Shown piece by piece: positions 24,123 through 37,204 of a stretch of DNA of 48,996 bases. Position 1 is the first letter of the stretch. Each line of letters begins with the position of its first letter. The position numbers were made by a program, and so were the translations under genes. Below the pieces are notes generated by a model. That model ran no database searches. It had not been told where the DNA came from and saw only the letters and a program-made list of their open reading frames with translations. The stretch lies in IMG/VR virus record IMGVR_UViG_3300037873_000028, positions 1-48,996 of that record; one strand, written 5' to 3'. The stretch comes from a virus.

Positions 24123-25485
24123 GGTCGCCGCTGCGCGGCGGCCGAGATCGGACGAGGGCAGGTTCGGCGTCGATCAGTGGATCGGCGAGTACCTGGTGCC
24201 CGCGTTCAGCTACAACGGCGCGTCGTACCCGTACGGGTACGGCCAGCAGTCCAACCGGACTCAGGAGGTCGCATCGACGCTGCCGGCGTACTCGGCGGCG
24301 CTGCGGCGGTGCCCGCCGGCGTTCGCCGCTCAGATGAAGCGGGCGATGGTGTTGAGCCAGGCCCGGTTCCGGTTCAGGAACCCGCCGTGGCATCCGTCCA
24401 CCCCGCGGCGCACCTTCGGCACTTCGGCGCTGTCGATCCTGGAGCGCCCGTGGACGAACGCCACCACGGGCGAGCTGCTGTCGCGGATGGAGTGGCACGC
24501 CGGGCTGGCCGGCAGCTCGTATGTGGCCCGGCAGGGCCGGCGGCTGCGGGTGCTGCGGCCGGACTACACCGCGGTGCTGTACGGCTCGGAGCGCGAGCCG
24601 GACGACCCGATGCACGCGCTGGACGGCGAGATCATCGGGTATGTCTACCAGAACGGCGGTATTCGGGCTGGCAGCGACGCCCCGGCGGAAACCCTGCTGC
24701 CGGGCGACGTCGCGCACTGGTCCCCGATCCCGGACCCCGAGTCGCCGGCGATGGGCATGTCCTGGGTCACCGCGGCGTTGCGGGAGATTCAGGGCGACCG
24801 GGCCGCGACCGAGCACAAGCTGCAGTTCTTCGCCAACGGGGCGACGCCGAGCATGGTGGTCAAGGGCATACCGGCAGTCACCAAAGCCCAGTTTGACGAG
24901 CTGGTCGACATGATGGAGTCCCGCCACGCCGGGGTTCGTAACGCATACCGCACCCTCTATCTGACCGCGGGCGCGGACGCCACGGTCGTCGGCGCCGACC
25001 TGAAGCAGTTGGACTTCAAGGCGACCCAGGGCGCCGGGGAGACGCGCATCGCGCTGCTGGGTGGGGTTCCGGCGGTGCTGCTGGGCATCTCCGAGGGTAT
25101 GCAGGGCAGCTCGTTGAACGCGGGTAACTTCGGCATGGCCCGGCGGATCTTCGCCGACATGTGGTTGTACCCGACGCTGCAGGATGTGGCGGCCGCACTG
25201 TCCCCGGTGGTGGACGTCCCTGGCGACGCCGAGCTGTGGTTTGACACGGCGGACATCCCGCTGCTGCGTGAGGACGGCAAGGACGCGGCGGACATCGAGC
25301 AGGTGAAGGGCGCCACCGTGACGGCGTACGTCCGGGAGGGCTTCACCGCCGAGTCGGCGGTGAGAGCAGTCAATGCCGGAGACATCACCCTGCTTCAGCA
25401 CACCGGCAACGTGTCCGTGCAGCTGCAGCCGCCGGGTACGCCGCCCGCACCTACAGGAGGTCCCGATGCAGGCACCACAGATTGA
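24097..25485 (+). CDS. Portal protein (HK97-family type, 462 aa)
   Basis: Size and position after terL and before the protease. GC3 is high. GTG start. Confidence 0.85.
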   Translation: MSSVGLVDRVAAARRPRSDEGRFGVDQWIGEYLVPAFSYNGASYPYGYGQQSNRTQEVASTLPAYSAALRRCPPAFAAQMKRAMVLSQARFRFRNPPWHPSTPRRTFGTSALSILERPWTNATTGELLSRMEWHAGLAGSSYVARQGRRLRVLRPDYTAVLYGSEREPDDPMHALDGEIIGYVYQNGGIRAGSDAPAETLLPGDVAHWSPIPDPESPAMGMSWVTAALREIQGDRAATEHKLQFFANGATPSMVVKGIPAVTKAQFDELVDMMESRHAGVRNAYRTLYLTAGADATVVGADLKQLDFKATQGAGETRIALLGGVPAVLLGISEGMQGSSLNAGNFGMARRIFADMWLYPTLQDVAAALSPVVDVPGDAELWFDTADIPLLREDGKDAADIEQVKGATVTAYVREGFTAESAVRAVNAGDITLLQHTGNVSVQLQPPGTPPAPTGGPDAGTTD

Positions 25486-26245
25486 CCTGGTGCGTGGTGT
25501 ATCACTCACGCCCGAGCTTCGTGCCGAAGATGGTGACGGTGATGGGCCACTCGGCACCCTGTCCGGCTTCTTTTCGGTGTTCAACGTCTGGTACGAGGTG
25601 GACAGCCTGTGGGAGGGGAAGTTCCTGGAGCACGTTGCCCCCGGTGCCTTCGCCCAGACTATCGAAGAAGACCGCGACTCGATGCGGGTCCTGTTCGACC
25701 ACGGTTTTGACTCGATCGGCAACAAGGTGCTCGGGCCGATCGAGGTCTTGGAGGAGCGGGCTAAGGGGCCGTACTACGAGGTCCCGCTGTTCGACACCAG
25801 CTACAACCGGGACCTACTGCCTGGGCTGCGGGCTGGCGTGTACGGCGCCAGCTTCCGGATGCGGGTGCTGGAGGAGTCGTGGGCGGATGAGCCGAAGCCG
25901 TCGCGGCGCAACCCGAAGGGCATCCCGGAGCGCACCATCCTGCGCACCAAGACGATGGAGTTCGGTCCGGTTACGTTCCCGGCCAACCCAAAGGCATCGG
26001 CCGCCGTCCGGTCGTTGACCGACTCCTACTACGACCGGCTGCGCCAGCGTGACGCCAGCGCCTTTGAGGCTGCGGTGCGCGCCGCAGGCCGGTCAATCCC
26101 AGACCTCACCGGGCGACCCGGCGCGCGGAGCGCGGGTGGCGGTGACCGTGACGTGGAGCCCAGCAGTGGCTTGGCGTCGCCTGTCCACTCAACCCAACAG
26201 CGCCTCGATGATGGGGCACTGCGACTGCGAAGGATCAAGCAATGA
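25466..26245 (+). CDS. Prohead (maturation) protease, HK97/S78-like
   Basis: ATG after ACAGGAGG. VLFDHGFDSIGNKVLG and the position between portal and capsid support the call. Confidence 0.8.
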   Translation: MQAPQIDLVRGVSLTPELRAEDGDGDGPLGTLSGFFSVFNVWYEVDSLWEGKFLEHVAPGAFAQTIEEDRDSMRVLFDHGFDSIGNKVLGPIEVLEERAKGPYYEVPLFDTSYNRDLLPGLRAGVYGASFRMRVLEESWADEPKPSRRNPKGIPERTILRTKTMEFGPVTFPANPKASAAVRSLTDSYYDRLRQRDASAFEAAVRAAGRSIPDLTGRPGARSAGGGDRDVEPSSGLASPVHSTQQRLDDGALRLRRIKQ

Positions 26246-27732
26246 GTGACGACAACGGTGTCACCATCCTGGACGAGCTCCGCGACAAGGACGCGAGCAC
26301 GCTCGACGAGGGGACGCCTGACGAGCTACGGGGCAAGACGCCTGACGAGCTGGCCAAGTACGTGGAGGTGCTTGACGCACACCTGCGCAGCATCCACCAG
26401 ACCGACGAGGGCGAGCTGCGCGAGAAGACCGCCGAGGAGCAGGCCGCGTTCAACTACGGCCTGAGGCTGCGGGATCTCGCCATCACCAAGGTGGAGGAGC
26501 ACCGGAAGATCCAGGAGATCTTCCGCCGTAAGCCGAAGGCGGTCGAGCGGGCCTTGGCCCGGATCAACTACGGCGACGACATGCTCGGTGACGTGCGGCG
26601 GATGTCCACTGCGGAGGCCCGTGACGCTGCGCTGAGGCAGGTGGAGAACCGGGTCGCTACCATGCACCTGACGGACAACCAGAAGGCGCAGATCCAGCGG
26701 AAGATCCGCCGGGACACCGACGTCGCGCGGCGGCTGTTGGTGACCGAGAACGACGACTACCGCAGCGCGTTCGTCAAGCTGGTGACTGACACCCACCCGT
26801 TCCTGACCCAGGATGAGCACCGGGCGGTCCAGGCGTTCAAGGAGTACCGGGCGATGGCCGAGGGCACCGGGTCCACCGGAGGGTTCGGAATTCCGGTGTT
26901 CATCGACCCGTCGATCATCCTGACTGACCAAGAGTCCGGCAACCCGTTCCTGACCCTGGCCCGGCAGGTGACGGTCACCACTAACGCATGGAAGGGCGTG
27001 TCCGCGGCCGGGGTTAGCTGGTCGTTCGACCCGGAAGCCTCAGAGGTGTCCGACGACGATGTGACGCTAGCCCAGCCGGAGGTGGACGTTCACACGGCGC
27101 GCGGGTTCATCCCCTACTCGATCGAGGTGGGCGACGACTATCCGATGTTCGCCGACGAGATGTCCCGGCTCCTGGGGGCCGGCTATGACGAGCTGCTGGT
27201 GGACAAGTTCTCCCGCGGTTCCGGCGCCGGTGAGCCGGACGGGATCCTCACCGCGCTGGACCGGTCCACGTCGGGCGCGGAGGTGCTGCTGACCACGGCG
27301 GGCACGCTCGGCGACATCGATGTCTACAACGTGTGGTCGCGGCTGCCGGCGAAGTACCGCCGTCGGGCGGCGTGGATGATGTCGATCGACGTGAACACGG
27401 CCATTCAGCGGTTCGGCACCGCGGATGCCTGGCACGCGGTGACCCGGCAGCTGCCGGATCCGGCGATCGACGTGCTGCGGGGCAAGCTGGTGTACGAGTC
27501 CAGCTACTTCCCGGACTTCGACGCGACCACCGGCCATCAGAATGTTCTGGTGGTGGGTGACTGGCAGAACTACGTCGTCGCGCGCCGGTCGGGGATGACC
27601 GTCGAGCTCGTGCCGCATCTGTTCGGTACGACCAATGGACTGCCGACCGGGCAGCGTGGCTGGTTCGCGTGGGCGCGGATCGGTGGCGGGGCGAGCAACA
27701 CCGCCGGCTTCCGGCTGCTGAACCAGACCTGA
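26242..27732 (+). CDS. Major capsid protein, HK97 fold, with an N-terminal delta/scaffold-like domain (496 aa)
   Basis: ATGA overlap with the protease. The coiled-coil-like first ~190 aa is followed by TGSTGGFGIPVFIDPSIIL, typical of HK97-family capsids. Confidence 0.9.
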   Translation: MSDDNGVTILDELRDKDASTLDEGTPDELRGKTPDELAKYVEVLDAHLRSIHQTDEGELREKTAEEQAAFNYGLRLRDLAITKVEEHRKIQEIFRRKPKAVERALARINYGDDMLGDVRRMSTAEARDAALRQVENRVATMHLTDNQKAQIQRKIRRDTDVARRLLVTENDDYRSAFVKLVTDTHPFLTQDEHRAVQAFKEYRAMAEGTGSTGGFGIPVFIDPSIILTDQESGNPFLTLARQVTVTTNAWKGVSAAGVSWSFDPEASEVSDDDVTLAQPEVDVHTARGFIPYSIEVGDDYPMFADEMSRLLGAGYDELLVDKFSRGSGAGEPDGILTALDRSTSGAEVLLTTAGTLGDIDVYNVWSRLPAKYRRRAAWMMSIDVNTAIQRFGTADAWHAVTRQLPDPAIDVLRGKLVYESSYFPDFDATTGHQNVLVVGDWQNYVVARRSGMTVELVPHLFGTTNGLPTGQRGWFAWARIGGGASNTAGFRLLNQT

Positions 27733-27745
27733 TGACAGGCAGTGT

Positions 27746-27775
27746 GGCCCCGGGGCCTTCCCTGCTCCCGGGGCT
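27746..27775 (+). terminator. GC-rich hairpin downstream of the capsid gene
   Basis: GCCCCGGG (27747-54) pairs with CCCGGGGC (27767-74). There is no U-tract, which is common in actinobacteria. Confidence 0.45.
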
Positions 27776-27799
27776 GCACGCCGTAACCGAGGAGGTCTC

Positions 27800-28078
27800 A
27801 TGAATGTGGTCTACGCGCGGACCGGTAAGACCTGGGTGGTCGCGCCGGATGGCACGCGCGTCTGGGTTCACATCGGTCAGCACTGGCCGGCCGATGACCC
27901 GGTGGTCAAGAAGTACCCGGGCCTGTTCTCCGATGACCCTGCGGTCGGCCTGACGTTCTCGGTCACCCCGCGCCCGGACGCGCCGCCTCCGGTGGAGCAG
28001 GCCACGGCCGCGCCGGGTGAGCGCCGGGCGATCCGGCGCCCGCGCCGGACCACGGAGCCGGACCAGGTTGAGCAGTGA
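27800..28078 (+). CDS. Hypothetical protein (92 aa)
   Basis: ATG after GAGGAGG. GTGA overlap with the next gene. Confidence 0.55.
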   Translation: MNVVYARTGKTWVVAPDGTRVWVHIGQHWPADDPVVKKYPGLFSDDPAVGLTFSVTPRPDAPPPVEQATAAPGERRAIRRPRRTTEPDQVEQ

Positions 28079-29436
28079 CCGACTCCGTCACCGTGGCCTA
28101 CCTCCACCAGACCGACGTGGCCTACTCGTGGCACCGGTCGCTACTGGAGATGGTCGGGTATGACCTCGGCCGCCAATCCCGGATCATCCGCGGCGGCTGG
28201 ATGGGGATGCGGTGCGGTACCGGCGGGCTCGTCGAGGGCCGAAACGAACTGGTGCGGCGGTTCCTGGACGAGACTGACAGCCCGTGGCTGTGGTGGGTTG
28301 ACACGGACATGGGGTTTGCGCCGGACACGGTGGACCGGCTGATGGAGGTGGCGGACCCGGTCGACCGGCCGATAGTCGGGGGGCTGTGCTTCGCGTACAA
28401 GGAGGTGTCACCGGACGGCCTGGGCGGCTACCGGTGCGCTCCGCGGCCCACCATCTTCGACTGGGTCACGGAGGATGACGCGCAGGGGTTCCGAGGGCGC
28501 ACGACCTATCCGCCGAACACGGTGGTGCGGTGCGCCGGCACCGGTGCTGCCTGCGTGCTGGTGCACCGGGAGGTGCTGGAGAAGATCCGGGCCGAATTCG
28601 GGCCGCACTGGTATGACCGGGTTCCGGACTCCACCGGTGGGCTGATCAGTGAGGATCTCTCGTTCTGCGTGCGGGCCGGCGCGGTGGGCGTTGCGGTGCA
28701 CGTGCACACCGGCGTACGGACCGACCACCAGAAGACAACCTGGGTGGGCGAGGCGGACTACTGGCACCAGGCGGTCGCGCCGCCGGCGACCGAGCCGACT
28801 GCGGTGCTGGTGCCGGCGATCCGGCATGTCCACGCTCAGCGGTTCATGGACTCCTTGCGCGCGTCGACCGGCCTGGCGCGGGCGTACGCCGTGGCCCGTC
28901 CGGATGAGACCGAGGCGATCGCCGCGTGGAAGGCGGCCGGTGCCGAGGTGCTGGCCGGTGATGTCGCGACGTTCGCGGAGCGGATCAACCTGGCCTACCG
29001 GCAGACAGCCGAACCGTGGTTGCTGGTCGCCGGTGACGACGTGCTGTTCCGGCCGGGCTGGCTGGACCACGCGCAGGCGGTGGCCGGCGAGCGCTACCAC
29101 GTGGTCGGCACGAACGACCTGGCCAACTCCCGGGTGATGGCCGGCCACCACGCGACCCACATGCTGGTCCGCCGGTCGTACGTGGACGAGCTCGGCGGCG
29201 GGTGGGACGGGCCGGGCGCCGTGGCGCACGAGGGGTACCGGCATTGGTTCGTCGATGACGAGATCGTGACCGTGGCGAAGCAGCGTGGGGTGTGGGCTAT
29301 GGCGCTGGGTTCGGTCGTGGAGCACATGCACCCGATCGCGGGCAAGGCCCCGGATGATGAGGTCTACCGCCGCGGCCGAGAGTCGGCCGACGCCGACCGG
29401 GAGTTGTTCGCCGCACGGCTGGCCGCCAATGCTTGA
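28075..29436 (+). CDS. Two-domain GT-A-type glycosyltransferase (453 aa)
   Basis: Domain 1: PWLWWVDTDMGFAPDTVDRL (DxD) ... GTGAACVLVHREVL ... SEDLSFC. Domain 2: LLVAGDDVLFRPGWLD. Both match recalled GT2-like patterns. Confidence 0.7.
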   Translation: MTDSVTVAYLHQTDVAYSWHRSLLEMVGYDLGRQSRIIRGGWMGMRCGTGGLVEGRNELVRRFLDETDSPWLWWVDTDMGFAPDTVDRLMEVADPVDRPIVGGLCFAYKEVSPDGLGGYRCAPRPTIFDWVTEDDAQGFRGRTTYPPNTVVRCAGTGAACVLVHREVLEKIRAEFGPHWYDRVPDSTGGLISEDLSFCVRAGAVGVAVHVHTGVRTDHQKTTWVGEADYWHQAVAPPATEPTAVLVPAIRHVHAQRFMDSLRASTGLARAYAVARPDETEAIAAWKAAGAEVLAGDVATFAERINLAYRQTAEPWLLVAGDDVLFRPGWLDHAQAVAGERYHVVGTNDLANSRVMAGHHATHMLVRRSYVDELGGGWDGPGAVAHEGYRHWFVDDEIVTVAKQRGVWAMALGSVVEHMHPIAGKAPDDEVYRRGRESADADRELFAARLAANA

Positions 29437-30061
29437 CCGGGCCGAGCTTGACCGGCGGATCGCTACGGTGGACATGCCGGCGCCTCACGAGCCGTGGCAC
29501 ATCGCCACTTTCGTGGATGCGGTGCTGGCCGACCCGGCGCCGGGCGTGCTGGTGGAGTGCGGCGTCTACCGCGGGGTGTCGGCTGCGAAGTGGTCGCACC
29601 TGGCGGCCGCGCTGGGCCGGACACTATGGCTGTTCGACAGCTTCGCCGGCCTGCCGGCCAACAGCGAACGGCACAGGCGCAGCATCGACGACCGGTCGAT
29701 AGCCGGCATGTTCGGCGAGGGCGCTTACGCCGGGACGCTGGAGCAGGCGCAACACACGGTCTGCCGCTACGGCGTGCCAGAGGTGACCCGCTGGGCGCCG
29801 GGCTGGTTCGAGGCGACCCTGCCGGGGTTCCGCGAGCCGGTGGCCGCGGCCTACCTGGACGTCGACCTGGCCGAGTCCGCCACCACCTGCCTGAGGCACC
29901 TGTGGCCGCTGGTCACCCCGGGTGGCTGCATCGTGAGCCAGGATGGCGACTTTCCGCTGACCCTGGCCGCGATGCGGGAGTGGGCGGCCACGGCCGATCC
30001 GGTGCCGGTGGTTACCGGGCTCGGCGAGTCGAAGATGGTCGTGTTCCGGCGGCCGCTGTGA
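29429..30061 (+). CDS. TylF/MycF-type SAM-dependent O-methyltransferase (210 aa)
   Basis: GVLVECGVYRGVSAAK ... LWLFDSFAGLP ... YLDVDLAESATTCLRHLWPLVTPGGCIVSQDG is the macrocin-O-methyltransferase family pattern. Confidence 0.8.
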   Translation: MLDRAELDRRIATVDMPAPHEPWHIATFVDAVLADPAPGVLVECGVYRGVSAAKWSHLAAALGRTLWLFDSFAGLPANSERHRRSIDDRSIAGMFGEGAYAGTLEQAQHTVCRYGVPEVTRWAPGWFEATLPGFREPVAAAYLDVDLAESATTCLRHLWPLVTPGGCIVSQDGDFPLTLAAMREWAATADPVPVVTGLGESKMVVFRRPL

Positions 30062-30564
30062 TGCCGCCGCATGCGACCGAGGTCCTGGCCGCCGGTGCGG
30101 ATCTGCTCGACGGGTTGGGCGTTCACTGGTGGCTGTCGGCCGGCACTGCGCTGGGGGTGGTGCGTGACGGCCGGCTGATCCCGCATGACACCGATCTCGA
30201 CGTGGGTGTGCTGGACGACCCGCCGGGGGTGCTGGACCGGGTGCACCTGGCGTTCGCGACCGCCGGGTGGGTGTTGGCGCGGCTGATGCCGTACCAGCGC
30301 GCCCACCTGTCCCGGGGCGTGATCTTTGACGTCTACGCCTACCGCCGTGACGGCGACCGGCTGGTGGCGGACACCGACTGCGGCCGGTTGTCCAAGCCTG
30401 CTCACCTGTTCGCCGAGCTGACCTGGCTGGAGTTCGCCGGCCGGTGCTATCCGCTGCCATCGCCACCGTCCGAGTATCTGGAGGTGCGGTACGGTCCCGG
30501 CTGGCGGATGCCAGCCGGGACGAAGGGACCATGGCAGGCCGAGACGGCGGCGCTACGGCGATGA
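30061..30564 (+). CDS. LicD-family (phospho)transferase-like protein (167 aa)
   Basis: WWLSAGTALGVVRDGRLIPHDTDLDVGV matches the LicD GT(L)LG..R....IP.D.D.D motif. Confidence 0.65.
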   Translation: MPPHATEVLAAGADLLDGLGVHWWLSAGTALGVVRDGRLIPHDTDLDVGVLDDPPGVLDRVHLAFATAGWVLARLMPYQRAHLSRGVIFDVYAYRRDGDRLVADTDCGRLSKPAHLFAELTWLEFAGRCYPLPSPPSEYLEVRYGPGWRMPAGTKGPWQAETAALRR

Positions 30565-31199
30565 TCTCCTGGATCGTCGCCTCGCACCGGCCGGAGGTGC
30601 TGGCCGGGAACCTGGGTGCGACGCTGGCGCTCGGCCCCGGGGACGAGCTGGTGGTGGTCGAGGGCGCCGCGTCGATCGCCGCCGCGTACAACCAGGGCCA
30701 GGCCCGGGCGACTCGGCCGATCCGCTGCTACGTGCATCACGACGTGCGGGTGGCCGACCCGGCGCGGCTGCGTGACGAGCTGGTCCGGAGCTGCACGCCG
30801 GAGGTGGGCATGGTGGGGCTCATCGGCAGCCGGGACTACGCCATCCCGTGGTGGGACGGCACCACCTGCGGCTCGGTGGTCGACGCGCGCATGGGCCGGC
30901 TGGACTTCGGCCCGGGCGGTGAGTGCACCTACCTGGACGGGCTGCTGCTGGCCACCGCGCAGCCGGTGGTCTGGGACGAGAGCTATCCGGGCTGGCACGG
31001 CTACGACCATGACATGTGCGAGCAGCAGTTGGCCGCTGGCCGCCACAACTGGTGCCTGACCGGTGGCGCGGAGATGGTGCTGCACAACACGGCCGGCCCG
31101 ACCGACGTGGGCCGACTGGACGGGTGGGCCGCGGGGCTGGCCCGGTTCCAGCGGAAGTGGGGCACGGATGGACCCGGTGGTCGGGGCGCTCTGGGGTGA
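30561..31199 (+). CDS. Glycosyltransferase-like protein (GT-A/GT2-like, 212 aa)
   Basis: MISWIVASHRPEVLAGNL ... AAAYNQG ... YVHHDV ... YLDGLLLA resembles small phage GT2-like enzymes. Confidence 0.6.
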   Translation: MISWIVASHRPEVLAGNLGATLALGPGDELVVVEGAASIAAAYNQGQARATRPIRCYVHHDVRVADPARLRDELVRSCTPEVGMVGLIGSRDYAIPWWDGTTCGSVVDARMGRLDFGPGGECTYLDGLLLATAQPVVWDESYPGWHGYDHDMCEQQLAAGRHNWCLTGGAEMVLHNTAGPTDVGRLDGWAAGLARFQRKWGTDGPGGRGALG

Positions 31200-31350
31200 G
31201 CTGCTGGTGCGCCGCGCCGGGTGCCGTGTCGCGCCTGCGTGGCGGGTGGCGCTGCGCGATCCGGACCTGGGCGGCACCGTCCACTCGCTACACCACCGGA
31301 CCCCGGAGCGGACTGGTAGGCCATCACGTCGAGGAGAGACGAGGACGGAT

Positions 31351-31485
31351 ATGACCGACACAACCCCCATCCCGGAACCTGAGCCGGCGGCTCAGGTGAC
31401 CACGAACATCAACCTGTCGGTGGCCACCGGGCAGCCCATCCCGCAGCCGGACACCGAGCCGGAGGAGGAAGACACCGATGAGTGA
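31351..31485 (+). CDS. Possible small acidic Pro/Glu-rich peptide (44 aa)
   Basis: ATG after GAGGAGAGACGAGGACGG. The same frame is also open from ATG 31168, so the start is uncertain. Confidence 0.35.
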   Translation: MTDTTPIPEPEPAAQVTTNINLSVATGQPIPQPDTEPEEEDTDE

Positions 31486-31810
31486 CGCACTACTGCTGAA
31501 CGCGGCCGCCGACGCGGCCGGGCTGAACCTGGAGAACGCCTGGTACGCCATCGGCGATGGCCCCACCGGCGGCGACCAGGTGTCCAACGAACGGCTGCAG
31601 CCGGCCTACACCACCGCGGTGGCTGGCGTGGCCGCGTTGACCAGCACGCTGAGTTTCACCGGCACCGGCTCGGCCGCGGTGAGCGACCTGCTCGTGTTCG
31701 ACGACGAGGCCGCCGGCAACTTCCGGTTCTCGGCGACGCTGGGCGGCGACAACACGTTCAATTCCGCAGGCGACTTGGATCTCACCGCCGCGCCGATCAC
31801 CGTCACCTGA
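31478..31810 (+). CDS. Hypothetical structural-module protein (110 aa)
   Basis: 8-nt overlap with the upstream ORF. Gly/Ala/Thr-rich and beta-type in composition. Confidence 0.55.
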   Translation: MSDALLLNAAADAAGLNLENAWYAIGDGPTGGDQVSNERLQPAYTTAVAGVAALTSTLSFTGTGSAAVSDLLVFDDEAAGNFRFSATLGGDNTFNSAGDLDLTAAPITVT

Positions 31811-31820
31811 GGAGGATGAC

Positions 31821-32120
31821 ATGGCCGCAGGGTTCGCTGCGTTCACCACAAAGGACGAGATCAACCGGGGAGGTGGCCGGATGGTCTATGCCGGCCGGGA
31901 GTTCTTCCGGCTGGTGGCGATGATGGACGCCTTCCACGCCCCACTGGGGTCGGCTGGGCTTCAGACCGATTACGGTTTCGATGAGCCGTCCGCCACCCTG
32001 CTCGGATCCGCGATCGGCGACTCGAAGCAGCTGATGGACATCCGCAACGGCCTGGCAACCCTAGGGGTCGCCAAGGACTTCGACTTCTTCGCCAAGCAGC
32101 TGATCGGTCTCCGGCCGTAG
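31821..32120 (+). CDS. Hypothetical structural-module protein (99 aa)
   Basis: ATG after GAGGAGG. Confidence 0.55.
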   Translation: MAAGFAAFTTKDEINRGGGRMVYAGREFFRLVAMMDAFHAPLGSAGLQTDYGFDEPSATLLGSAIGDSKQLMDIRNGLATLGVAKDFDFFAKQLIGLRP

Positions 32121-32141
32121 CTTGGCCGAGGTGGTGCGGCA

Positions 32142-34856
32142 ATGACGTTCATCCGCAGGCTCGCCGACACCGACGACATCGTCTTCACCACCGGCCTCGG
32201 CGGGCTGGACGGCATCACCCACGGCACCGTCGCCATACTCTTCCGGCCCAACGCCGCGTTCGGCTCCACCGCCCGCACCCTGTTCCGGCTGCACGACTCG
32301 GCCGGCGTGGACCTCGGTGGCATCGGGCTGAACAGCTCCGACGAGGTTGTCTGGTCGGACGGGACCAACGAGTCGACCGGGCCGGCCACCACCACCACCG
32401 ACTGGCATGTTCTGGTCGCCCGCAAGGCCACCGGCAACAACGTCCCCCGGTTCAGCCTGCTCAACGTGGACACCGGCATCCCGTCCCACGCCGACGGGGA
32501 CGCGGCGGTGGGCGACTGGACCGCACCGGCCGGCGGCACCATCCGCACCACCGTCGAAGGTGCGAGCGGTCCCGGGTCCGACGTGGCGGCGATGGCCGCC
32601 TGGGCCAACGAGCTGCCGTGGGCGGTCGACGCGGGCGGCGACGACGACATCGAGACCGCCGGGCTGGCGGAGCACCTGAACAATTGGCTGGCCGCCGCAC
32701 CGTCGGCGGCGTGGGGCTTCGGCCTGGCCACCGTCTACAACATCGAGGACGTCACCGGCGGCCGGGCTGACCAGATCAACTTCGGCGGCGGCGGCGGCGC
32801 CGACGCCACCGACCTGGACTTCACCTACGAGGACACCACCCTCGACGTCCTGAGCCGCAACTTCCTGCGGGACACCCAGACTGAGCCCGACTCCACCGGC
32901 ATCGTCCGGGACCTGTCCGAGACCCAGGGCACCCCGGGCACCATGGGATCGGGCAACGTGTCCGGCGGGTTCGCCGAAGTGATCCGCTGGCACCGGGTGG
33001 TGGGCACCGGCGTCGGCTCGGCCGACATCTCCACCCAGGTCCAGGTCACCGCCGTCTCCGCGGCCACGCTCAGCTACCGGTGGCGGGTCCAACGTTACGA
33101 CAGCTCCGGGGTGCTGCAGGCCAGCTCCGACTACAGCAGCGGGCACAACACCACCGGCATCAAGGTCCAGAGCTTCACCCTGGCCACCACGTGGGTTGCC
33201 GGGGACCGGCTGGCCCTGTCGCTGGAGCTGCGGAAGACCTCCGGCGGTGGCAGCCGCAACATCACCGTCGCGGTCAACGACGGCGACGCGTGGGCCGAGT
33301 TCGAGGTGGCGGTCGTATCCCCCGCCCAGGTCACCGCCGCCATCCCCCTCACCGTCACGGTCGCGCCGGCTGTGGCCGCCGACCACGCCGCCACCGTCAA
33401 CATCCCCCTGACCGTGGCGGTTGCCCCGACCGTCGCGGCGCCAAGCGCGACCGGACTCATCTCCGGCGAGGTGTCGATCAACCCGGCCACCCTGTCATGC
33501 GGGGTCGGGGAGCGGCTGGTCTGCATCGCCTGGTCCCGCGGCGGTGGCACCAGCTTCGGGGTGACACCTAACGCGGGCGGGGCCAGCTGGACCAACCGGG
33601 TGGTTGAGGCGACGCTGCCGACCAACGACCTGGCCCGCCGGTCGGTGGGTGTGGCCGAGCTGGTGCCCGCGTCCGAGGTGACCGCCGGCGTGTTCACGGC
33701 AGCGTGGTCGGGCGATGCCACCGATGCGATATGGCTGAGGGTCCAGGAAGGCGGCGCGTTCGGCTTCGCCGCCGCTGCGGTGGCCGACTCTGACACCGCG
33801 TTCGTGACGTCCCTGGCCACCGGTGACACCGCGTCGATCCCGGCCGGGGATCTGCTGCTGGTCGCCGCCGCGGTGATCCGAGACGGGGGTGCGGCCGGCA
33901 CCGCCTGGGCCAACGCGGACATCAACCCCGGGCTGGTAGCCGGCGGGAACCTGTCACTCGACGCCTACGCCGGGAAGGGCGCCGGCGGCAACGGCGGCGT
34001 CGCCGGCTACCTGATCCTCGACGGCCAGGGCGCCGGGGTCCGCGCGGACACGCTCACCCTGCCCGGCGGTGACGCCGCCAAGCAGATCAGCGTGGCGCTG
34101 GTGGTGTGGTCCACCGGGGTGACCACCACCCCCCAGGTCACCGCGTCGATCCCCCTGACGGTGGCGGTCGCCGGCACCACCACGGCCGAGCATCAGGCGA
34201 CCGCCGAGCTCGAGCTCGGGGTGGCGCTGGCCGGCACCGTCGCCGCGGAGCATCAGGCCACCGCCGGGGTGGACCTGACGGTCACGCTGGCCGGCACCGC
34301 CGCCACCGACCATGCCGTCACCGCCGCGGTGCCGCTGGCGCTCGGCCTGGCGCCGGTGGTCGCCGCGCCGGAGGTGGGCGCCCCGGCCGAGGTGACCGCC
34401 GACATCCCCCTCACGCTCACCGTGGCCGGCACAGCCCAGGCCACCCACCAGGTCACCACCGCCGTGCCGCTCACCCTGGCCGTCGCCGCCACCGTCCAGG
34501 CCGAGCACCAGGCCACCACCACGGTGCCGCTGGCCCTGACCATCGCCCCGGTGGTCGATGCGCCCGTGCCCGGCGCACCCAACCAGGTCACCACGAGCAT
34601 CCCCCTCGGGCTGGCCGTGGCCGGCACCACCGCCACCGGCTACCAGGCCACCGCTGGCATACCGCTGACGCTGACGATCGCCCCGACCGGGCACGCGGAC
34701 CACTCGGTCACCGCATCGGTCGCGATGGTCCTCGCGCTGGCTGGGGTGATAGGTACTCCAGAAGTCCCGGTGTGGCCGCCGGTCACCGCCCACCGGACAT
34801 CCGTCGCGGCGGTGACGGCCCGACGAACCTCCGCTACGACCGTGACGGGAGGGTGA
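32142..34856 (+). CDS. 904-aa protein: LamG/concanavalin-like N-terminal domain plus two blocks of 20-25-aa tandem repeats
   Basis: The N-terminus has LamG-like features (GTVAILFRP...LFRLHDS...DWHVLVARKATG). Repeats of consensus xxIPLTLTVAGTxxAxHQAT follow. GC3 is high throughout. Confidence 0.75.
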   Translation: MTFIRRLADTDDIVFTTGLGGLDGITHGTVAILFRPNAAFGSTARTLFRLHDSAGVDLGGIGLNSSDEVVWSDGTNESTGPATTTTDWHVLVARKATGNNVPRFSLLNVDTGIPSHADGDAAVGDWTAPAGGTIRTTVEGASGPGSDVAAMAAWANELPWAVDAGGDDDIETAGLAEHLNNWLAAAPSAAWGFGLATVYNIEDVTGGRADQINFGGGGGADATDLDFTYEDTTLDVLSRNFLRDTQTEPDSTGIVRDLSETQGTPGTMGSGNVSGGFAEVIRWHRVVGTGVGSADISTQVQVTAVSAATLSYRWRVQRYDSSGVLQASSDYSSGHNTTGIKVQSFTLATTWVAGDRLALSLELRKTSGGGSRNITVAVNDGDAWAEFEVAVVSPAQVTAAIPLTVTVAPAVAADHAATVNIPLTVAVAPTVAAPSATGLISGEVSINPATLSCGVGERLVCIAWSRGGGTSFGVTPNAGGASWTNRVVEATLPTNDLARRSVGVAELVPASEVTAGVFTAAWSGDATDAIWLRVQEGGAFGFAAAAVADSDTAFVTSLATGDTASIPAGDLLLVAAAVIRDGGAAGTAWANADINPGLVAGGNLSLDAYAGKGAGGNGGVAGYLILDGQGAGVRADTLTLPGGDAAKQISVALVVWSTGVTTTPQVTASIPLTVAVAGTTTAEHQATAELELGVALAGTVAAEHQATAGVDLTVTLAGTAATDHAVTAAVPLALGLAPVVAAPEVGAPAEVTADIPLTLTVAGTAQATHQVTTAVPLTLAVAATVQAEHQATTTVPLALTIAPVVDAPVPGAPNQVTTSIPLGLAVAGTTATGYQATAGIPLTLTIAPTGHADHSVTASVAMVLALAGVIGTPEVPVWPPVTAHRTSVAAVTARRTSATTVTGG
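33327..33446 (+). repeat. Repeat block 1 (two units) within the 904-aa ORF
   Basis: QVTAAIPLTVTVAPAVAADHAAT / VNIPLTVAVAPTVAAP. Confidence 0.7.
34134..34775 (+). repeat. Repeat block 2 (about ten 60-75-bp units) within the 904-aa ORF
   Basis: Units ASIPLTVAVAGTTTAEHQAT, AELELGVALAGTVAAEHQAT, AGVDLTVTLAGTAATDHAVT, AAVPLALGLAPVVAAPEVGAPAEVT, and so on. They form a higher-order pattern of 20+20+25 aa. End coordinate is approximate. Confidence 0.75.
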
Positions 34857-34857
34857 C

Positions 34858-35769
34858 GTGGCAGCGCTGGTCTTCTTCGAGTCGGCGAGTGAGCTGGCGA
34901 CGCTGACCAACACGTTCTCGGTTGACGGCATCCCTACTGACCCGACCGCAATCAGCCTGATCGTCACCGACCCCGAGGGCGCCGCGACCACGTACACCCT
35001 CGCCGCCCTGGAGATCACCAAGACCAGCACCGGTGTGTACACCAAGGACATCACCTGCAGTCTCGCCGGGACGTGGAGCTTTCGGTGGATAGGCACCGGC
35101 GATGTGGTGGACACCGAGGCCGGCACCTGGGATGTGCTGGACACCACGCTCGGCCGGCTCTACGCCACCGTGGAGGCGCTGAAGTCACGGCTCGGGCTGG
35201 AGGTCACCGACACCGCCAGCGACTTCGAGTTGCACATGGCGTGCTTCGCCGCCAGCCGCATGGTGGAGCACTACTGCCAGCGGCTGTTCTGGCGGACCAC
35301 CGCGGCCGAGGTCCGCACGTTCGTCCCGGACAACCCCTACTGCCTGAAGCTGGGCGCCTTCAACGGCCTGGTATCGGTGGCCAGCCTGAAGACCGACGCC
35401 AGCGGTGACGGGACGTTCGAGACCACCTGGGCCGCCACCGACTTCCAACTGCTGCCGGTCAACCTGGCAGCCGCCCCCGAGCGGAGGCCGTACACGGAGG
35501 TGAAGGCGCTGGCCCGGGCTTTCCCGCTGCCGCACGGCACGCTGGCCCGCCAGGACCGGGTGCAGATCACCGGCGTGTTCGGGTGGCCGGCTGTGCCCTA
35601 CAGCGTGAAGCAGTCGGCACTGATCACCTCGGCTGAGTTGTTCCGGTCCAAGTCCACCTTTGAGGCTCAAGGCGGGTTCGATGAGACGGCCGGGTTCATG
35701 CTCCGGCGCAACCCGTTCGCCCTGGACCTGATCAAGCCGTACCGACTCACCCCAGTGCTGATGGCGTGA
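34858..35769 (+). CDS. Head-tail connector (gp6-like) with an extra N-terminal beta-rich domain (303 aa)
   Basis: LYATVEALKSRLGLEVTDTASDFELHMACFAASRMVEHYCQRLF is the classic head-tail connector motif. About 100 aa precede it. Confidence 0.7.
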   Translation: MAALVFFESASELATLTNTFSVDGIPTDPTAISLIVTDPEGAATTYTLAALEITKTSTGVYTKDITCSLAGTWSFRWIGTGDVVDTEAGTWDVLDTTLGRLYATVEALKSRLGLEVTDTASDFELHMACFAASRMVEHYCQRLFWRTTAAEVRTFVPDNPYCLKLGAFNGLVSVASLKTDASGDGTFETTWAATDFQLLPVNLAAAPERRPYTEVKALARAFPLPHGTLARQDRVQITGVFGWPAVPYSVKQSALITSAELFRSKSTFEAQGGFDETAGFMLRRNPFALDLIKPYRLTPVLMA

Positions 35770-36176
35770 TGGCGACTATCCAGGAGATCCGGGCCGGCAT
35801 CAAAGCCCGGCTGGACACCATAGCCGGGCTGCGGGCTCACGCGAACATGCCAGGCACCATCAACGCCCCGGCCGCGGTGGTAGCTCGACGATCCACCGAG
35901 TTCGACACAACGCTCGATGGCCAGAGTGACGATCTGACGTTCGCGGTAACCGTGTTCGTCGAGTGGACCACCGACCGGGCTCAGGAGAAGCTGGACGCCT
36001 ACACCGCCAGCGGGGGCGCGTCGTCGATCCGGGTCGCCATCAATGGTGATCCGACGCTGGGTGGGGTGGTGGACTTCGCGGCGGCCGTCTCGGTGGGGCG
36101 GGATCGTCCGGTCGAATGGCCGCCGGGGAGCAATCAGACGTACCTCGCGGCGGACGTCGTGATTGAGGTCGGCTGA
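35766..36176 (+). CDS. Head-tail joining / tail-terminator-like protein (136 aa)
   Basis: Position and size. Weak resemblance to the DUF3168-type pattern. GTGA overlap. Confidence 0.45.
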   Translation: MMATIQEIRAGIKARLDTIAGLRAHANMPGTINAPAAVVARRSTEFDTTLDGQSDDLTFAVTVFVEWTTDRAQEKLDAYTASGGASSIRVAINGDPTLGGVVDFAAAVSVGRDRPVEWPPGSNQTYLAADVVIEVG

Positions 36177-37204
36177 TGCGATTCGCGGTCTGTCACCCGG
36201 GTCCGGGATTTTCCGTGCACGACGTGTACACCGGGTGGGTGGAGGCGCTCGAACAGCTTGGCCACCAGGTGGTCCCGTTCAACCTGCACGACCGATTGAC
36301 CTTCTACGACAGCGCGTTCTTCAACGTCGCCGAGGGTCAGTTCCGCAAGGCGATCCCGCAGGAGACCGCGGTCGAGCTGGCCGTGAACGGCCTGTACGCC
36401 ACGCTCTACAAGACCCGGCCTGACGTGCTGCTGGTGGTCTCCGCCTTCCTGGTGCCGGTCGAGCTGCTGGACCTGGCCCGCCGCTACGGCACCCGCGTGG
36501 TGGTGCTGCACACCGAGGCGCCCTACGAGGACACCCGACAGCTGGCCGTGGCCGGGCACGCCGATCTGAACCTGGTCAACGACCCAGTGAGCATCGCCCG
36601 GTACCGGGAGCTGGCCCCGACCGAGTACATCCCGCACGCCTACCGGCCGCTGATCCACTGCCCCGGCCCGGTCGAGCCGCACCTGGCCGCAGACCTTGCG
36701 TTCGTCGGCACCGGCTTCGAGTCCCGGATCGAGTTCTTCGAGGCGATGGACCGCACCGGGCTGGACCTGCTCCTGGCCGGCAACTGGCAGCGGCTGGCCG
36801 AGGACTCGCCGCTGCGCAAGTACGTAGCCCACGACGTGGCCGAATGCCTGGACAACACCGATGCGGTCCGCGTCTACCGCTCGGCCAAGGTGGGGCTGAA
36901 CCTGTACCGGCGGGAGGCCGAGGACGGCGATTCTGCGGACGGCTGGGCTTGCGGTCCGCGGGAAGTGGAGATGGCCGCGGTGGGTCTGCCGTTCCTGCGG
37001 GAGCCGCGTGGCGAGGGTGACGAGCTGCTGCCGATGCTGCCCACGTTCAGCTCGCCGGCCGAGGCGGGGTATCTGGCCCGCTGGTGGCTGGCCCATGAGG
37101 ACCTCCGGGTGGAGGCGGCAGCCAAGGCCCGGCAGGCGGTCGCCGACCGCACGTTCAGGAACCACGCAGCGCGCATGCTGCACCTGTTAGAGGGAGTGAG
37201 ATAG
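36176..37204 (+). CDS. GT-B-type glycosyltransferase-like protein (CgeB/DUF3880-like, 342 aa)
   Basis: DLAFVGTGFESRIEFFEAM...LDLLLAGNWQ...VRVYRSAKVGLNLYR...GPREVEMAAVGLPFL resembles CgeB-family / Glyco_trans_1_2 proteins. Confidence 0.6.
   Translation: MRFAVCHPGPGFSVHDVYTGWVEALEQLGHQVVPFNLHDRLTFYDSAFFNVAEGQFRKAIPQETAVELAVNGLYATLYKTRPDVLLVVSAFLVPVELLDLARRYGTRVVVLHTEAPYEDTRQLAVAGHADLNLVNDPVSIARYRELAPTEYIPHAYRPLIHCPGPVEPHLAADLAFVGTGFESRIEFFEAMDRTGLDLLLAGNWQRLAEDSPLRKYVAHDVAECLDNTDAVRVYRSAKVGLNLYRREAEDGDSADGWACGPREVEMAAVGLPFLREPRGEGDELLPMLPTFSSPAEAGYLARWWLAHEDLRVEAAAKARQAVADRTFRNHAARMLHLLEGVR

What the first reader, a model, noticed from the sequence alone, without database searches (positions are those of the whole stretch)
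28075..31199. Four-gene sugar-modification cassette (double GT-A, TylF O-methyltransferase, LicD, GT-A) inserted in the head module
Between the capsid gene and the head-tail connector sit four translationally coupled enzyme genes:
- A 453-aa protein with two GT-A-like domains (DTD and GDD acidic motifs).
- A TylF/MycF-type sugar O-methyltransferase.
- A LicD-type (phospho)transferase (GTALGVVRDGRLIPHDTDLDV).
- A second small GT2-like protein.

A fifth enzyme, of GT-B type, lies beside the tail-tube gene and is reported separately. Phage-encoded glycosyltransferases that glycosylate capsid and tail-tube subunits are known from some mycobacteriophages.

Here at least three GT-A domains are combined with a methyltransferase and a LicD-family enzyme. 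LicD enzymes normally attach phosphocholine or polyol-phosphate to glycans. That combination implies a multi-step, methylated and possibly phospho-substituted glycan built on virion proteins, or on the host envelope during infection. I am not aware of a characterised LicD-containing virion decoration pathway.

The cassette position suggests it acts on late structural proteins. The adjacent 904-aa Thr/Ala-rich repeat protein is an obvious candidate substrate.
Basis: partly seen in the sequence, partly recalled or inferred. Interest (0 to 1): 0.82.

Follow-up and report, generated by a model that had tools for sequence, protein, structure and literature searches.

The report
Phage capsid-side sugar-decoration gene cassette
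Four overlapping enzyme genes in the head-gene block of an uncultured soil actinobacterial phage look like a kit for building a methylated, possibly phosphate-capped sugar chain, most likely on the virus particle; such kits are known in mycobacteriophages, and only the small LicD-type enzyme is unusual.

Summary
Four + strand genes overlap start-to-stop:
- 28075-29436: a 453-aa tandem GT-A glycosyltransferase.
- 29429-30061: a TylF-type O-methyltransferase.
- 30058-30564: a 168-aa minimal LicD/FKRP-type phosphotransferase.
- 30561-31199: a Glyco_tranf_2_5 glycosyltransferase.

They lie between the major capsid gene and the head-tail adaptor gene of a temperate actinophage.

In related loci, the tandem GT follows the capsid gene plus a ~92-aa gene wherever that flank was captured. 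More than 1,800 homologues exist. The three downstream genes occur only in the closest relatives. Other relatives carry different sugar enzymes there: GDP-mannose dehydratase, C- and O-methyltransferases, RGP-type mutase, a 2OG oxygenase, other GTs.

One relative fuses the tandem GT and LicD into one protein.

The kind is already known. Cluster J mycobacteriophages carry GT and methyltransferase genes between capsid and connector genes, including a chondroitin-synthase-like two-domain GT (2013). Clusters F, O and C glycosylate capsid and tail tube (2023).

I found no report of LicD in such a cassette.

The target, virion or host envelope, is inferred and not shown. The 904-aa protein is not specifically linked to the cassette.

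Verdict: a new variant of a known kind, of moderate interest.

The parts
26242..27732 (+). Major capsid protein (HK97-type, 496 aa). Upstream anchor of the locus and candidate acceptor.
   Evidence: Pfam Phage_capsid 2.3e-24; phrog_10 major head protein 9.6e-27.
27800..28078 (+). 92-aa small connector-like protein. It lies between the capsid gene and the tandem GT in most related loci.
   Evidence: phrog_9538 head-tail connector, 8.9e-5. tblastn shows it conserved between the capsid gene and the GT in most loci where that flank was captured. Its stop overlaps the GT453 start.
28075..29436 (+). GT453, a tandem GT-A glycosyltransferase. N-domain is about residues 1-240, with DxD at D76/D78. C-domain is about residues 241-453, with GDD at D322 plus D348, H417 and H419. 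It is the conserved core of the locus.
   Evidence: Pfam Glyco_tranf_2_3 3.4e-7 for the N-half. phrog_34859 7e-22 for the N-half; phrog_14945 and phrog_22332 for the C-half. AF2 mean pLDDT 91.9. Foldseek matches K4CP, R699, LH3, COLGALT1 and LARGE1 over about 500 columns. Invariant acidic and His residues. More than 1,800 homologues.
29429..30061 (+). MT210, a TylF/NovP/MycF-type SAM-dependent sugar O-methyltransferase. It lacks the N-terminal part of the family profile.
   Evidence: Pfam TylF 1.7e-20 and Methyltransf_24 2e-10. PDB matches: 4cdz 8e-22, NovP 7e-14, MycF 9e-14, with the DSF..G.P and LD.DL.ES motifs aligned. 30% identical to Corndog gp35, E 2.7e-9.
30058..30564 (+). LicD168, a minimal (168 aa) LicD/FKRP-type phospho-alcohol transferase domain with an invariant HDTDLD motif.
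   Evidence: Pfam LicD 8e-7, N-terminal motif only. The family profile matches the FKRP catalytic domain (6kaj residues 290-435) over query positions 18-150, E 2.9e-10. D44, D46 and D48 are invariant. It is fused to the tandem GT in L104.
30561..31199 (+). GT212, a single-domain GT-A-like glycosyltransferase of Pfam family Glyco_tranf_2_5.
   Evidence: Pfam PF13712 1.2e-17. Homologues occur in the same interval in about 15 related loci and next to LicD in L098 and L099.
34858..35769 (+). Head-tail adaptor. Downstream anchor of the variable interval.
   Evidence: phrog_442 1.5e-26.
36176..37204 (+). GT-B-like glycosyltransferase between the tail terminator and the major tail protein. Probably part of the same decoration system, acting on the tail tube.
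   Evidence: Pfam Glyco_trans_1_2 2.8e-13. The neighbours are phrog_17840 tail terminator and phrog_10528 major tail protein. GT-B is followed by the tube gene in about 20 related loci, preceded by the terminator in most of them.

Best explanation
This is a late-expressed, cytoplasmic glycan-building cassette of a temperate siphovirus that infects Actinomycetota. Its most likely role is to decorate virion proteins, as in the glycosylated mycobacteriophages: the capsid, and the tail tube through the separate GT-B.

**Proposed order of action (inferred)**
1. The tandem GT-A enzyme GT453 is conserved next to the capsid gene across the clade. It uses host nucleotide sugars to start and extend the chain. 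Both domains keep DxD and His metal sites. It therefore probably adds two different sugars, or possibly a repeating disaccharide as other tandem GT-A enzymes do.
2. GT212 adds a further sugar.
3. MT210 O-methylates a sugar hydroxyl, using SAM and a divalent metal.
4. LicD168 transfers a phospho-alcohol onto a sugar hydroxyl from a host-made CDP-activated donor. The group could be glycerol-phosphate, ribitol-phosphate or phosphocholine. No cytidylyltransferase is encoded here.

The last three genes are an exchangeable tailoring sub-module. Relatives carry other tailoring or nucleotide-sugar genes at the same place, so glycan structure probably differs between related phages.

**What is shown and what is inferred**
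- Shown here: the enzyme families, the gene coupling, the synteny, the variability and the fusion.
- Inferred: the acceptor, the sugars, the order of steps and the LicD donor.
For: **Enzyme identities:**

**Late operon**
- Same strand from the portal gene to the tail genes.
- Four consecutive start-stop overlaps.
- No promoter-like or terminator-like site in 26000-38000 (the consensus scan is weak for actinomycetes).

**Soluble enzymes:** no 19-residue window in the four proteins exceeds a Kyte-Doolittle mean of 1.35.

**Conserved core**
- Order portal-protease-capsid-92aa-tandem GT wherever the upstream flank was captured among the 78 viral loci.
- Also in an Amycolatopsis pretoriensis prophage and in other Actinomycetota MAGs.

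**Variable interval:** the distance from the tandem GT to the adaptor ranges from 72 bp to 7.2 kb. It is filled with GDP-mannose 4,6-dehydratase, sugar C-methyltransferase, Methyltransf_23 and Methyltransf_24 proteins, GT2, TOD1-like, RGP-like, FAD-oxidoreductase and 2OG-oxygenase genes.

**LicD works with the GT**
- A colinear fusion of tandem GT and LicD in L104, 51% identical over 621 residues.
- LicD is adjacent to the tandem GT in L098 and L099.
- In L097 LicD sits in a capsid-adjacent cassette with a GT-B.
- Other mini-LicD proteins are fused to GT-B, GT2 or a cytidylyltransferase.

**CDP-alcohol donor:** distant mini-LicD genes sit beside TagD-like CTP_transf_like genes.

**Precedent for a virion target**
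- Phage-encoded GTs glycosylate capsid and tail tube in Che8, Corndog and Myrna (Freeman 2023, as summarised in PMC12363180 and PMC11600133).
- MT210 is homologous to Corndog gp35.
- The GT453 C-domain is homologous to LittleE gp17, which lies in the capsid-connector cassette of cluster J.
- A second GT gene lies directly upstream of the tail-tube gene.
Against: - No experiment or direct sequence feature identifies the acceptor.
[quoted passage not shown] The capsid protein ends in S or T in 45 of 63 relatives and not in the other 18. The tube ends in ...KVG.
- No detectable similarity to Corndog gp37 or gp38, the latter named as an essential GT. Che8 gp110 was not tested.
- Bacterial LicD enzymes normally act on envelope glycopolymers.
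- No donor-synthesis gene is present in the window or in the related loci.
- The authors who described the cluster J cassettes left open whether the targets are viral or host.
- The LicD model could not be built: the single-sequence AF2 run gave pLDDT 37.
Confidence: 0.55

Rival explanations
1. The enzymes modify host envelope glycopolymers during infection, such as teichoic-acid-like polymers or other cell-wall glycans. This could mask receptors, block superinfection, or stop progeny binding to debris.
For: - LicD-family and GT-A enzymes typically act on teichoic acids, LPS or capsules (established knowledge).
- Benler et al. proposed teichoic-acid modification for the phage licD they found (PMC8008677).
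- The LicD donor would have to come from the host, which fits hosts that make CDP-polyols.
- Pope et al. left host targets open.
Against: - The genes are embedded in the late structural operon and coupled to it, not placed near the integrase at 423-1244 as lysogenic-conversion genes usually are. They would therefore be silent in a lysogen.
- None of the four proteins has a membrane-spanning segment.
- The tandem GT keeps a fixed position next to the capsid gene, and a GT-B next to the tube gene, across distant relatives.
Confidence: 0.22
2. The cassette makes a glycan that is not covalently attached to the capsid or the tube. One option is a polymer made by the tandem GT, acting as a polymerase like K4CP, LARGE or PmHS2. 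Another is glycosylation of a different phage protein, such as the 904-aa repeat protein or another head or fibre protein.
For: - The best structural matches of GT453 are disaccharide-repeat polymerases.
- The Thr/Ala-rich 904-aa protein (T 13%, A 17%) lies just downstream.
Against: - The same fold search also matches protein-glycosylating tandem GT-A enzymes, COLGALT1 and LH3.
- The 904-aa family occurs without LicD and without the tandem GT in L111, and away from any cassette in L112.
- Among the fetched loci with the tandem GT, homologues of the 904-aa protein were detected only in L001, L003 and L004.
Confidence: 0.13
3. The enzymes modify phage DNA, for example by glycosylating hypermodified bases.
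For: Some phages glycosylate their DNA with their own glycosyltransferases (established knowledge).
Against: - No base-hydroxymethylase or thymidylate-synthase-like gene was found among the early genes scanned.
- The cassette lies in the head module.
- TylF- and LicD-type enzymes are not known from DNA modification pathways.
Confidence: 0.03

Closest known systems
Cluster J mycobacteriophage capsid-connector insertion (Omega, LittleE, Thibault; Pope et al. 2013, PMC3706429)
   Same: [quoted passage not shown]
- Omega gp16 is a two-catalytic-domain GT compared to E. coli chondroitin synthase, the same structural match as GT453.
- The C-domain of LittleE gp17 is homologous to the C-domain of GT453 (28% identity, E 7e-10).
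   Different: - No LicD-like gene is present: the A1 profile finds nothing in the LittleE cassette.
- Cluster J carries a kinase-like gene and a Zn-peptidase-like gene instead.
- Sequence identity is low, and tblastn found no match at E <= 1e-5.
- The function of the cluster J cassette was not established in that paper.
Mycobacteriophage virion glycosylation systems (Che8, Corndog, Myrna; Freeman et al. 2023, Cell Host Microbe; seen only through citing papers)
   Same: - Phage-encoded GTs, and in cluster O an O-methyltransferase followed by three GTs, modify capsid and tail-tube subunits.
- The Corndog cassette gp35-38 also lies in the head module, between portal and protease.
- Corndog gp35 is homologous to MT210.
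   Different: - The GTs are not detectably homologous to GT453 or GT212.
- There is no LicD.
- The C-terminal attachment reported for those phages (my recollection of the abstract; the paper was not readable here) has no clear counterpart in this capsid or tube protein.
LicD/FKRP family phospho-alcohol transferases (pneumococcal LicD1/LicD2, fukutin, FKRP)
   Same: - The DxD-containing nucleotidyltransferase-like catalytic domain is shared.
- The family profile aligns with the FKRP catalytic domain across almost the whole protein (E 2.9e-10).
- Distant mini-LicD genes are paired or fused with cytidylyltransferases.
   Different: - The protein is only 168 aa, against a 227-position Pfam profile, and has no stem or extra domain.
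- It is encoded in a phage head module.
- No donor-synthesis gene lies nearby in this phage.
- The substrate is unknown.
licD plus ispD insertion in 'Flandersviridae' gut phages (Benler et al. 2021, PMC8008677)
   Same: A phage-encoded LicD-family enzyme seen in metagenomic phage genomes, present in only some members of the group.
   Different: - There it lies in the DNA replication module, paired with an IspD/TarI-type enzyme.
- It was interpreted as host teichoic-acid modification.
- Here it lies in a capsid-adjacent GT cassette and is fused to the GT in one relative.
Tandem GT-A bifunctional enzymes (K4CP, PmHS2, LARGE1, COLGALT1/LH3, mimivirus R699)
   Same: Two GT-A domains in one chain. 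These are the top Foldseek matches, aligned over about 500 columns.
   Different: - Sequence identity is 8-12%, and TM-scores are about 0.3 because the domains are arranged differently.
- Whether GT453 polymerises or adds two single sugars is unknown.

Membership tests
GT-A fold / GT2-like glycosyltransferase (GT453 N-domain) | Pfam GT2-clan model scored above its curated cut-off | tested here: met
   Glyco_tranf_2_3 scores 31 bits against a cut-off of 27. Glycos_transf_2 scores 21.1 bits, below its cut-off of 23.3.
GT-A fold / GT2-like glycosyltransferase (GT453 N-domain) | DxD metal and nucleotide-sugar binding motif | tested here: met
   D76 and D78 (VDTDM) are invariant in 45 homologues.
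GT-A fold glycosyltransferase (GT453 C-domain) | GT-A fold with an acidic motif and a C-terminal His | tested here: met
   - There is no Pfam hit. PHROG GT families 14945 and 22332 match at 5e-7 and 3.5e-6.
- The AF2 model is confident.
- Foldseek alignments to two-domain GTs span both halves.
- D322, D348, H417 and H419 are invariant.
Tandem GT-A bifunctional glycosyltransferase (K4CP-like) | Two GT-A domains in one polypeptide | tested here: met
   Gordonia phage Sixama has a 437-aa GT of the same architecture.
Tandem GT-A bifunctional glycosyltransferase (K4CP-like) | Alternating transfer of two sugars (polymerase activity) | not testable with these tools
   This needs enzymology.
TylF / NovP / MycF sugar O-methyltransferases (PF05711) | Pfam model above cut-off and homology to solved members | tested here: met
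   73.8 bits against a cut-off of 23. PDB matches: 4cdz 8e-22, NovP 7e-14, MycF 9e-14.
TylF / NovP / MycF sugar O-methyltransferases (PF05711) | Conserved DSF..G.P motif and acidic LD.DL.ES motif | tested here: met
   WLFDSFAGLP and LDVDLAES align with WVVDSFQGMP and LDGDLYES of 4cdz.
TylF / NovP / MycF sugar O-methyltransferases (PF05711) | Full-length architecture including the N-terminal region | tested here: not met
   Only profile positions 79-229 of 264 are matched. The protein has 210 aa, against 250-283 aa in the solved members. Corndog gp35 is equally short at 194 aa.
LicD family (PF04991) | Pfam model above its curated cut-off | tested here: met
   29.8 bits against a cut-off of 22.6, but only profile positions 5-35 of 227 are matched.
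LicD family (PF04991) | Catalytic domain homologous to a solved LicD-type transferase, with the DxD motif kept | tested here: met
   The family profile matches the FKRP catalytic domain at E 2.9e-10 over positions 18-150. HDTDLD aligns with WDYDVD. D44, D46 and D48 are invariant.
LicD family (PF04991) | Typical size and full profile coverage (227-position profile) | tested here: not met
   168 aa. It belongs to a short subfamily of about 165-210 aa that is common in metagenomes: 185 representatives at E <= 1e-30 and 6,950 at E <= 1e-10.
LicD family (PF04991) | A linked gene for the CDP-activated donor (LicC, TarI or TagD type) | tested here: not met
   None in the window or in the 78 related viral loci. 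Such a gene is present beside, or fused to, distant mini-LicD homologues.
LicD family (PF04991) | Phospho-alcohol transfer from a CDP donor to a glycan | not testable with these tools
   This needs an enzyme assay.
Glyco_tranf_2_5 (PF13712), GT212 | Pfam model above its curated cut-off | tested here: met
   64.8 bits against a cut-off of 27, matching profile positions 31-176 of 210.
Actinophage virion glycosylation system (Freeman et al. 2023) | Homology to the GTs named as essential (Che8 gp110, Corndog gp38) | tested here: not met
   BLASTP and hhalign against Corndog gp37 and gp38 give E >= 0.06. Che8 gp110 was not tested.
Actinophage virion glycosylation system (Freeman et al. 2023) | O-methyltransferase homologous to that of the cluster O cassette | tested here: met
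   MT210 against Corndog gp35: 30% identity over 138 aa, E 2.7e-9.
Actinophage virion glycosylation system (Freeman et al. 2023) | Glycans on capsid and tail-tube subunits | not testable with these tools
   This needs virion mass spectrometry. The C-terminal S/T pattern is inconclusive.
Cluster J-type capsid-connector GT insertion (Pope et al. 2013) | Several GT and methyltransferase genes between the capsid gene and the head-tail connector or adaptor genes, including a two-domain GT | tested here: met
   There is homology to LittleE gp17.

The most novel reading that the evidence does not exclude
Some soil actinophages may coat their capsids, and perhaps their tails, with glycans capped by teichoic-acid-like phospho-polyol or phosphocholine groups. 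A minimal LicD enzyme would add these groups, working physically with the capsid-linked tandem glycosyltransferase. The tailoring genes are swapped between relatives, which would make this a hypervariable virion 'glycocode'. Such a coat could mimic host wall polymers or change adsorption, stability or recognition.
Probability: 0.3. Interest if true: 0.75.

Novelty: new variant of a known kind. Interest (0 to 1): 0.5.

Why it matters
Virion glycosylation in phages was shown only recently, in a few mycobacteriophages, where it changes antibody recognition.

**What this locus adds**
- A tandem GT fixed next to the capsid gene is the core of a very large, uncultured clade of actinophages and prophages.
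- The interval behind it is a swap site for sugar-tailoring and nucleotide-sugar genes.
- In a small subset that interval includes a LicD-type phosphotransferase, once fused to the GT.

If virions carry these glycans, phosphate-linked substituents on phage particles would be a new chemistry for viruses of bacteria.

**Practical openings**
- The Amycolatopsis pretoriensis DSM 44654 prophage offers a cultivable entry point to the tandem-GT core.
- The compact 168-aa LicD domain is an attractive minimal model of the FKRP/fukutin class of enzymes.

Tried and rejected
- **Close relatives among isolated phages.** Megablast and tblastn of the cassette against 50,697 phage records found no match at E <= 1e-5. 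Weak C-domain hits to cluster J, Gordonia, Arthrobacter and Streptomyces phage GTs appeared only at relaxed E-values.
- **LicD structure.** Single-sequence AlphaFold2 of LicD168 gave pLDDT 37 and was unusable. That used one of the two jobs, so no LicD model exists. The profile search against PDB replaced it.
- **GT453 profile against PDB by sequence.** Only marginal GlfT2 hits, E about 0.04. The fold search was needed.
- **Own promoter or terminator for the cassette.** None found, but the scan uses an E. coli-type consensus.
- **Cytidylyltransferase search.** Nothing in the window or the related loci.
- **Ser/Thr-rich C-terminal tails on capsid and tube as acceptor sites.** Inconclusive: the capsid ends in S or T in 45 of 63 loci, and the tube ends in ...KVG.
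- **The 904-aa protein as the specific partner of the cassette.** Rejected on co-occurrence. It has no Pfam, PHROG or PDB match, and its homologues are unnamed.
- **DNA modification.** No supporting genes.
- **LittleE gp16 (167 aa, 'kinase') as a hidden mini-LicD.** Rejected: the A1 profile does not match it.
- **Freeman et al. 2023.** The paper could not be read; it is not held. Its content is taken from citing papers and from my recollection of the abstract.

Full report
**1. Observation**

The region 28075-31199 holds four + strand genes with start-stop overlaps:
- GTGA at 28075.
- ATGCTTGA at 29429.
- GTGATG at 30058.
- ATGA at 30561.

Their codon-position GC pattern is that of real genes in this ~70% GC sequence.

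Family assignments:
- Pfam places the 453-aa protein's N-half in the GT2 clan.
- The 210-aa protein is TylF (1.7e-20).
- The 168-aa protein is LicD (8e-7, N-terminal motif only).
- The 212-aa protein is Glyco_tranf_2_5 (1.2e-17).
- PHROGs adds glycosyltransferase families for both halves of the 453-aa protein.

The flanks are a standard head module:
- terminase, 22287-23891;
- portal, 24097-25485;
- protease;
- HK97-type capsid protein, 26242-27732;
- a 92-aa connector-like protein;
- after the cassette, an adaptor at 34858-35769, a tail terminator, a GT-B-like protein at 36176-37204, the major tail protein at 37204-37602, and the tape measure.

An integrase at 423-1244 marks a temperate phage. 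The window corresponds to an IMG/VR soil-type viral contig family.

**2. The four enzymes**

*GT453.*
- An AlphaFold2 model built from 45 homologues is confident, with mean pLDDT 91.9.
- Its best PDB matches are tandem GT-A enzymes aligned over both halves: K4CP chondroitin polymerase, mimivirus R699, LH3, COLGALT1, LARGE1 and PmHS2.
- Among viral models, a 437-aa Gordonia phage Sixama GT has the same architecture.
- Invariant residues include D76/D78 in the N-domain, and D322, D348, H417 and H419 in the C-domain. Both domains therefore look catalytic.

*MT210.*
- It aligns with solved TylF-family sugar O-methyltransferases (4cdz, NovP, MycF), with the DSF..G.P and LD.DL.ES motifs kept.
- It lacks the N-terminal ~60-80 residues of those enzymes.

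*LicD168.*
- The word-indexed search found only 30 homologues, all about 170-200 aa.
- A profile built from them matches the catalytic domain of fukutin-related protein at E 2.9e-10, across positions 18-150 of 171. FKRP is a CDP-ribitol-dependent ribitol-phosphate transferase.
- HDTDLD aligns with FKRP WDYDVD.
- The exhaustive profile search shows that short LicD domains are widespread: 185 representative clusters at E <= 1e-30 and 6,950 at E <= 1e-10.

*All four.* None has a membrane-spanning segment.

**3. Comparative genomics**

*Conserved core.*
- 78 viral contigs encode a GT453 homologue at 38-100% identity.
- Wherever the upstream DNA is present, the order is portal-protease-capsid-92aa-tandem GT.
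- The protein database holds more than 1,800 homologues. They include prophage copies in Kribbella, Micromonosporaceae, Amycolatopsis pretoriensis DSM 44654, Jiangellaceae and Acidimicrobiia.

*Variable sub-module.*
- MT210 and LicD168 occur only in the closest relatives: L001-L003, L098 and L099, and L104 as a fusion.
- GT212 occurs in about 15 of the 78 loci.

*Variable interval.* In 43 loci where both the tandem GT and the adaptor were captured, the space between them ranges from 72 bp to 7.2 kb. It carries different sugar enzymes:
- GDP-mannose 4,6-dehydratase (17 loci);
- a Zn-finger sugar C-methyltransferase (8 loci);
- small GT2 proteins;
- a TOD1/MUCI70-like GT;
- Methyltransf_23 and Methyltransf_24 proteins;
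- a 2OG-Fe(II) oxygenase;
- FAD oxidoreductases;
- an RGP-type (UDP-arabinopyranose-mutase-like) protein.

The locus is therefore a conserved anchor GT followed by a swap site for glycan tailoring and nucleotide-sugar synthesis.

*Tail side.* GT-B followed by the tail-tube gene recurs in about 20 loci, with the tail terminator upstream in most of them.

**4. Links between LicD and the GT**

*The L104 fusion.*
- In L104 the tandem GT and LicD form one open reading frame.
- A concatenate of GT453 and LicD168 aligns colinearly with it, 51% identical over 621 residues.
- In that fusion the C-domain has lost its invariant acidic and His residues: GDD becomes REH, VDDE becomes VFEE, and HMH is absent.
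- The N-domain DTD and the LicD DxDxD motifs are kept.

*Other contexts.*
- In L097 a mini-LicD sits in a capsid-adjacent cassette that starts with a GT-B rather than the tandem GT-A. That cassette also holds an epimerase/dehydratase, an RGP-type protein, a TylF protein and another methyltransferase.
- More distant mini-LicD genes lie beside TagD-like cytidylyltransferases. This occurs in the structural modules of unrelated podophage-like contigs (L081, L082, L096, L100), in L080, and in an early region (L095).
- Fusions of a mini-LicD domain with a cytidylyltransferase, a GT-B or a GT2 exist.

These data support a CDP-alcohol donor and a glycan acceptor. The window and its relatives encode no cytidylyltransferase, so the donor would be host-made.

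**5. What is already known**

*Cluster J (Pope et al. 2013).*
[quoted passage not shown] - Whether the targets are viral or host was left open (PMC3706429).
- I confirmed the layout in LittleE.
- I also confirmed homology of LittleE gp17 to the GT453 C-domain: BLASTP 7e-10, profile 2.7e-9.

*Clusters O, F and C.*
- Cluster O phages carry an O-methyltransferase followed by three GTs.
- Phage GTs modify capsid and tail tube in Che8, Corndog and Myrna (Freeman et al. 2023, through PMC11600133 and PMC12363180).
- Corndog gp35-38 lie between its portal and protease genes.
- Corndog gp35 is homologous to MT210. Corndog gp37 and gp38 are not detectably related to GT453.

*LicD in phages.* A phage licD paired with ispD was reported in the replication module of gut 'Flandersviridae' (PMC8008677). 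Two full-text searches found no LicD in a virion-glycosylation context.

**6. Mechanism and rivals**

*Virion-protein glycosylation (about 0.55).* Grounds for this reading:
- The genes are late and coupled to the structural operon.
- The enzymes are predicted soluble.
- GT genes keep fixed positions next to the capsid and tube genes.
- The mycobacteriophage systems provide precedent and partial homology.

*Host-envelope modification (about 0.22).* It stays a serious rival. LicD and GT-A enzymes usually act on wall polymers, and no acceptor feature could be identified. The C-terminal S/T pattern is only partial.

*A non-capsid acceptor or a free polymer (about 0.13).* This cannot be excluded. 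That module travels independently of the cassette.

*DNA modification.* Unlikely.

**7. Verdict**

- The general arrangement has been known since 2013, and functionally since 2023.
- New here are the minimal LicD in a capsid-side GT cassette and its fusion to the GT.
- Also new is the picture of a very large uncultured actinophage clade with a conserved tandem GT and a hypervariable sugar-tailoring interval.
- Classification: a new variant of a known kind. Interest 0.5.

Noticed in passing
L104:6147-8165 (IMGVR_UViG_3300037440_000173): A single ORF fuses the tandem GT with a LicD domain. In it the second GT-A domain has lost its invariant GDD, DDE and HxH residues, while the N-domain DxD and the LicD DxDxD motifs are kept. 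A TylF-type methyltransferase gene follows, overlapping the stop.
   Followed up: partly
protein P0074 (734 aa, homologue of GT453): An insertion of about 240 aa that looks like an intein (my reading from its position and end residues). It starts with C and ends ...SRN, followed by C. It sits inside the C-domain at the conserved HWF|(V/C)DDEIVT site. Inteins usually target essential catalytic sites.
   Followed up: no
window 31478-34856 (orf110, orf99, orf904); L111 8278-10941; L112 8307-10983: The 110-aa, 99-aa and 904-aa genes behave as one mobile three-gene module. In L111 it follows a different glyco-cassette, without LicD and without the tandem GT-A. In L112 it lies after tail and endolysin genes. 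No Pfam, PHROG or PDB match exists for the large protein.
   Followed up: partly
window 34154-34547: The 904-aa gene contains imperfect 60-nt (20-aa) Thr/Ala-rich tandem repeats of the type ...PLTLTVAGTAxAxHQATT.... Similar repeats occur earlier in the protein.
   Followed up: no
window 31351-31485: An unannotated 44-aa ORF, MTDTTPIPEPEPAAQVTT...EEEDTDE, rich in Thr, Pro and Glu. It has a Shine-Dalgarno-like GAGGAGAGACGAGGACGG upstream and coding-like GC3 (0.84). It lies just after the cassette and overlaps the next gene's start. No homologue was found in the fetched loci.
   Followed up: partly
window 36176-37204: A GT-B-like glycosyltransferase (Glyco_trans_1_2) is wedged between the tail terminator and the 132-aa major tail protein. 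The arrangement is conserved in about 20 related loci. It also occurs in L099 and L111.
   Followed up: partly
window 23843-31160 vs L001 2674-9990; window 31160-32150: A co-occurring relative (L001) is 96% identical in DNA from the portal gene to the end of GT212. It then has almost no DNA match for about 1 kb, and is 73% identical over the 904-aa gene and 87% afterwards. A recombination breakpoint therefore lies at the 3' end of the cassette.
   Followed up: partly
L081 7738-8920, L082 513-1695, L096 6738-7926: Unrelated podophage-like contigs carry Cpn10(GroES-like)-miniLicD-TagD-like cytidylyltransferase inside their structural modules. L081 and L082 have an SU10-type adaptor, and L081 also an SU10-type portal. 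LicD plus a donor-synthesis gene is thus a recurrent phage module outside actinophages.
   Followed up: no
window 40385-42733: A 782-aa tail-region protein matches phrog_5313 (8.7e-94) and a phosphodiesterase PHROG (2.5e-22). Its counterpart in L112 carries a PhoD domain. This may be a wall-polymer (teichoic-acid?) phosphodiesterase on the tail.
   Followed up: no
window 13492-14886 and 17418-18167: Early-region genes include a DUF5131 (phage Gp37/Gp68-type) protein and an HNH-AP2 domain protein.
   Followed up: no
L069-L073 capsid genes: A subgroup of related phages has capsid proteins only about 29% identical to this one. They carry an extra ~10-residue Thr/Ser/Ala-rich C-terminal tail (...LNTSPAFTAKAS...LATTATFTAKAT), which is a possible glycan acceptor tail.
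   Followed up: no
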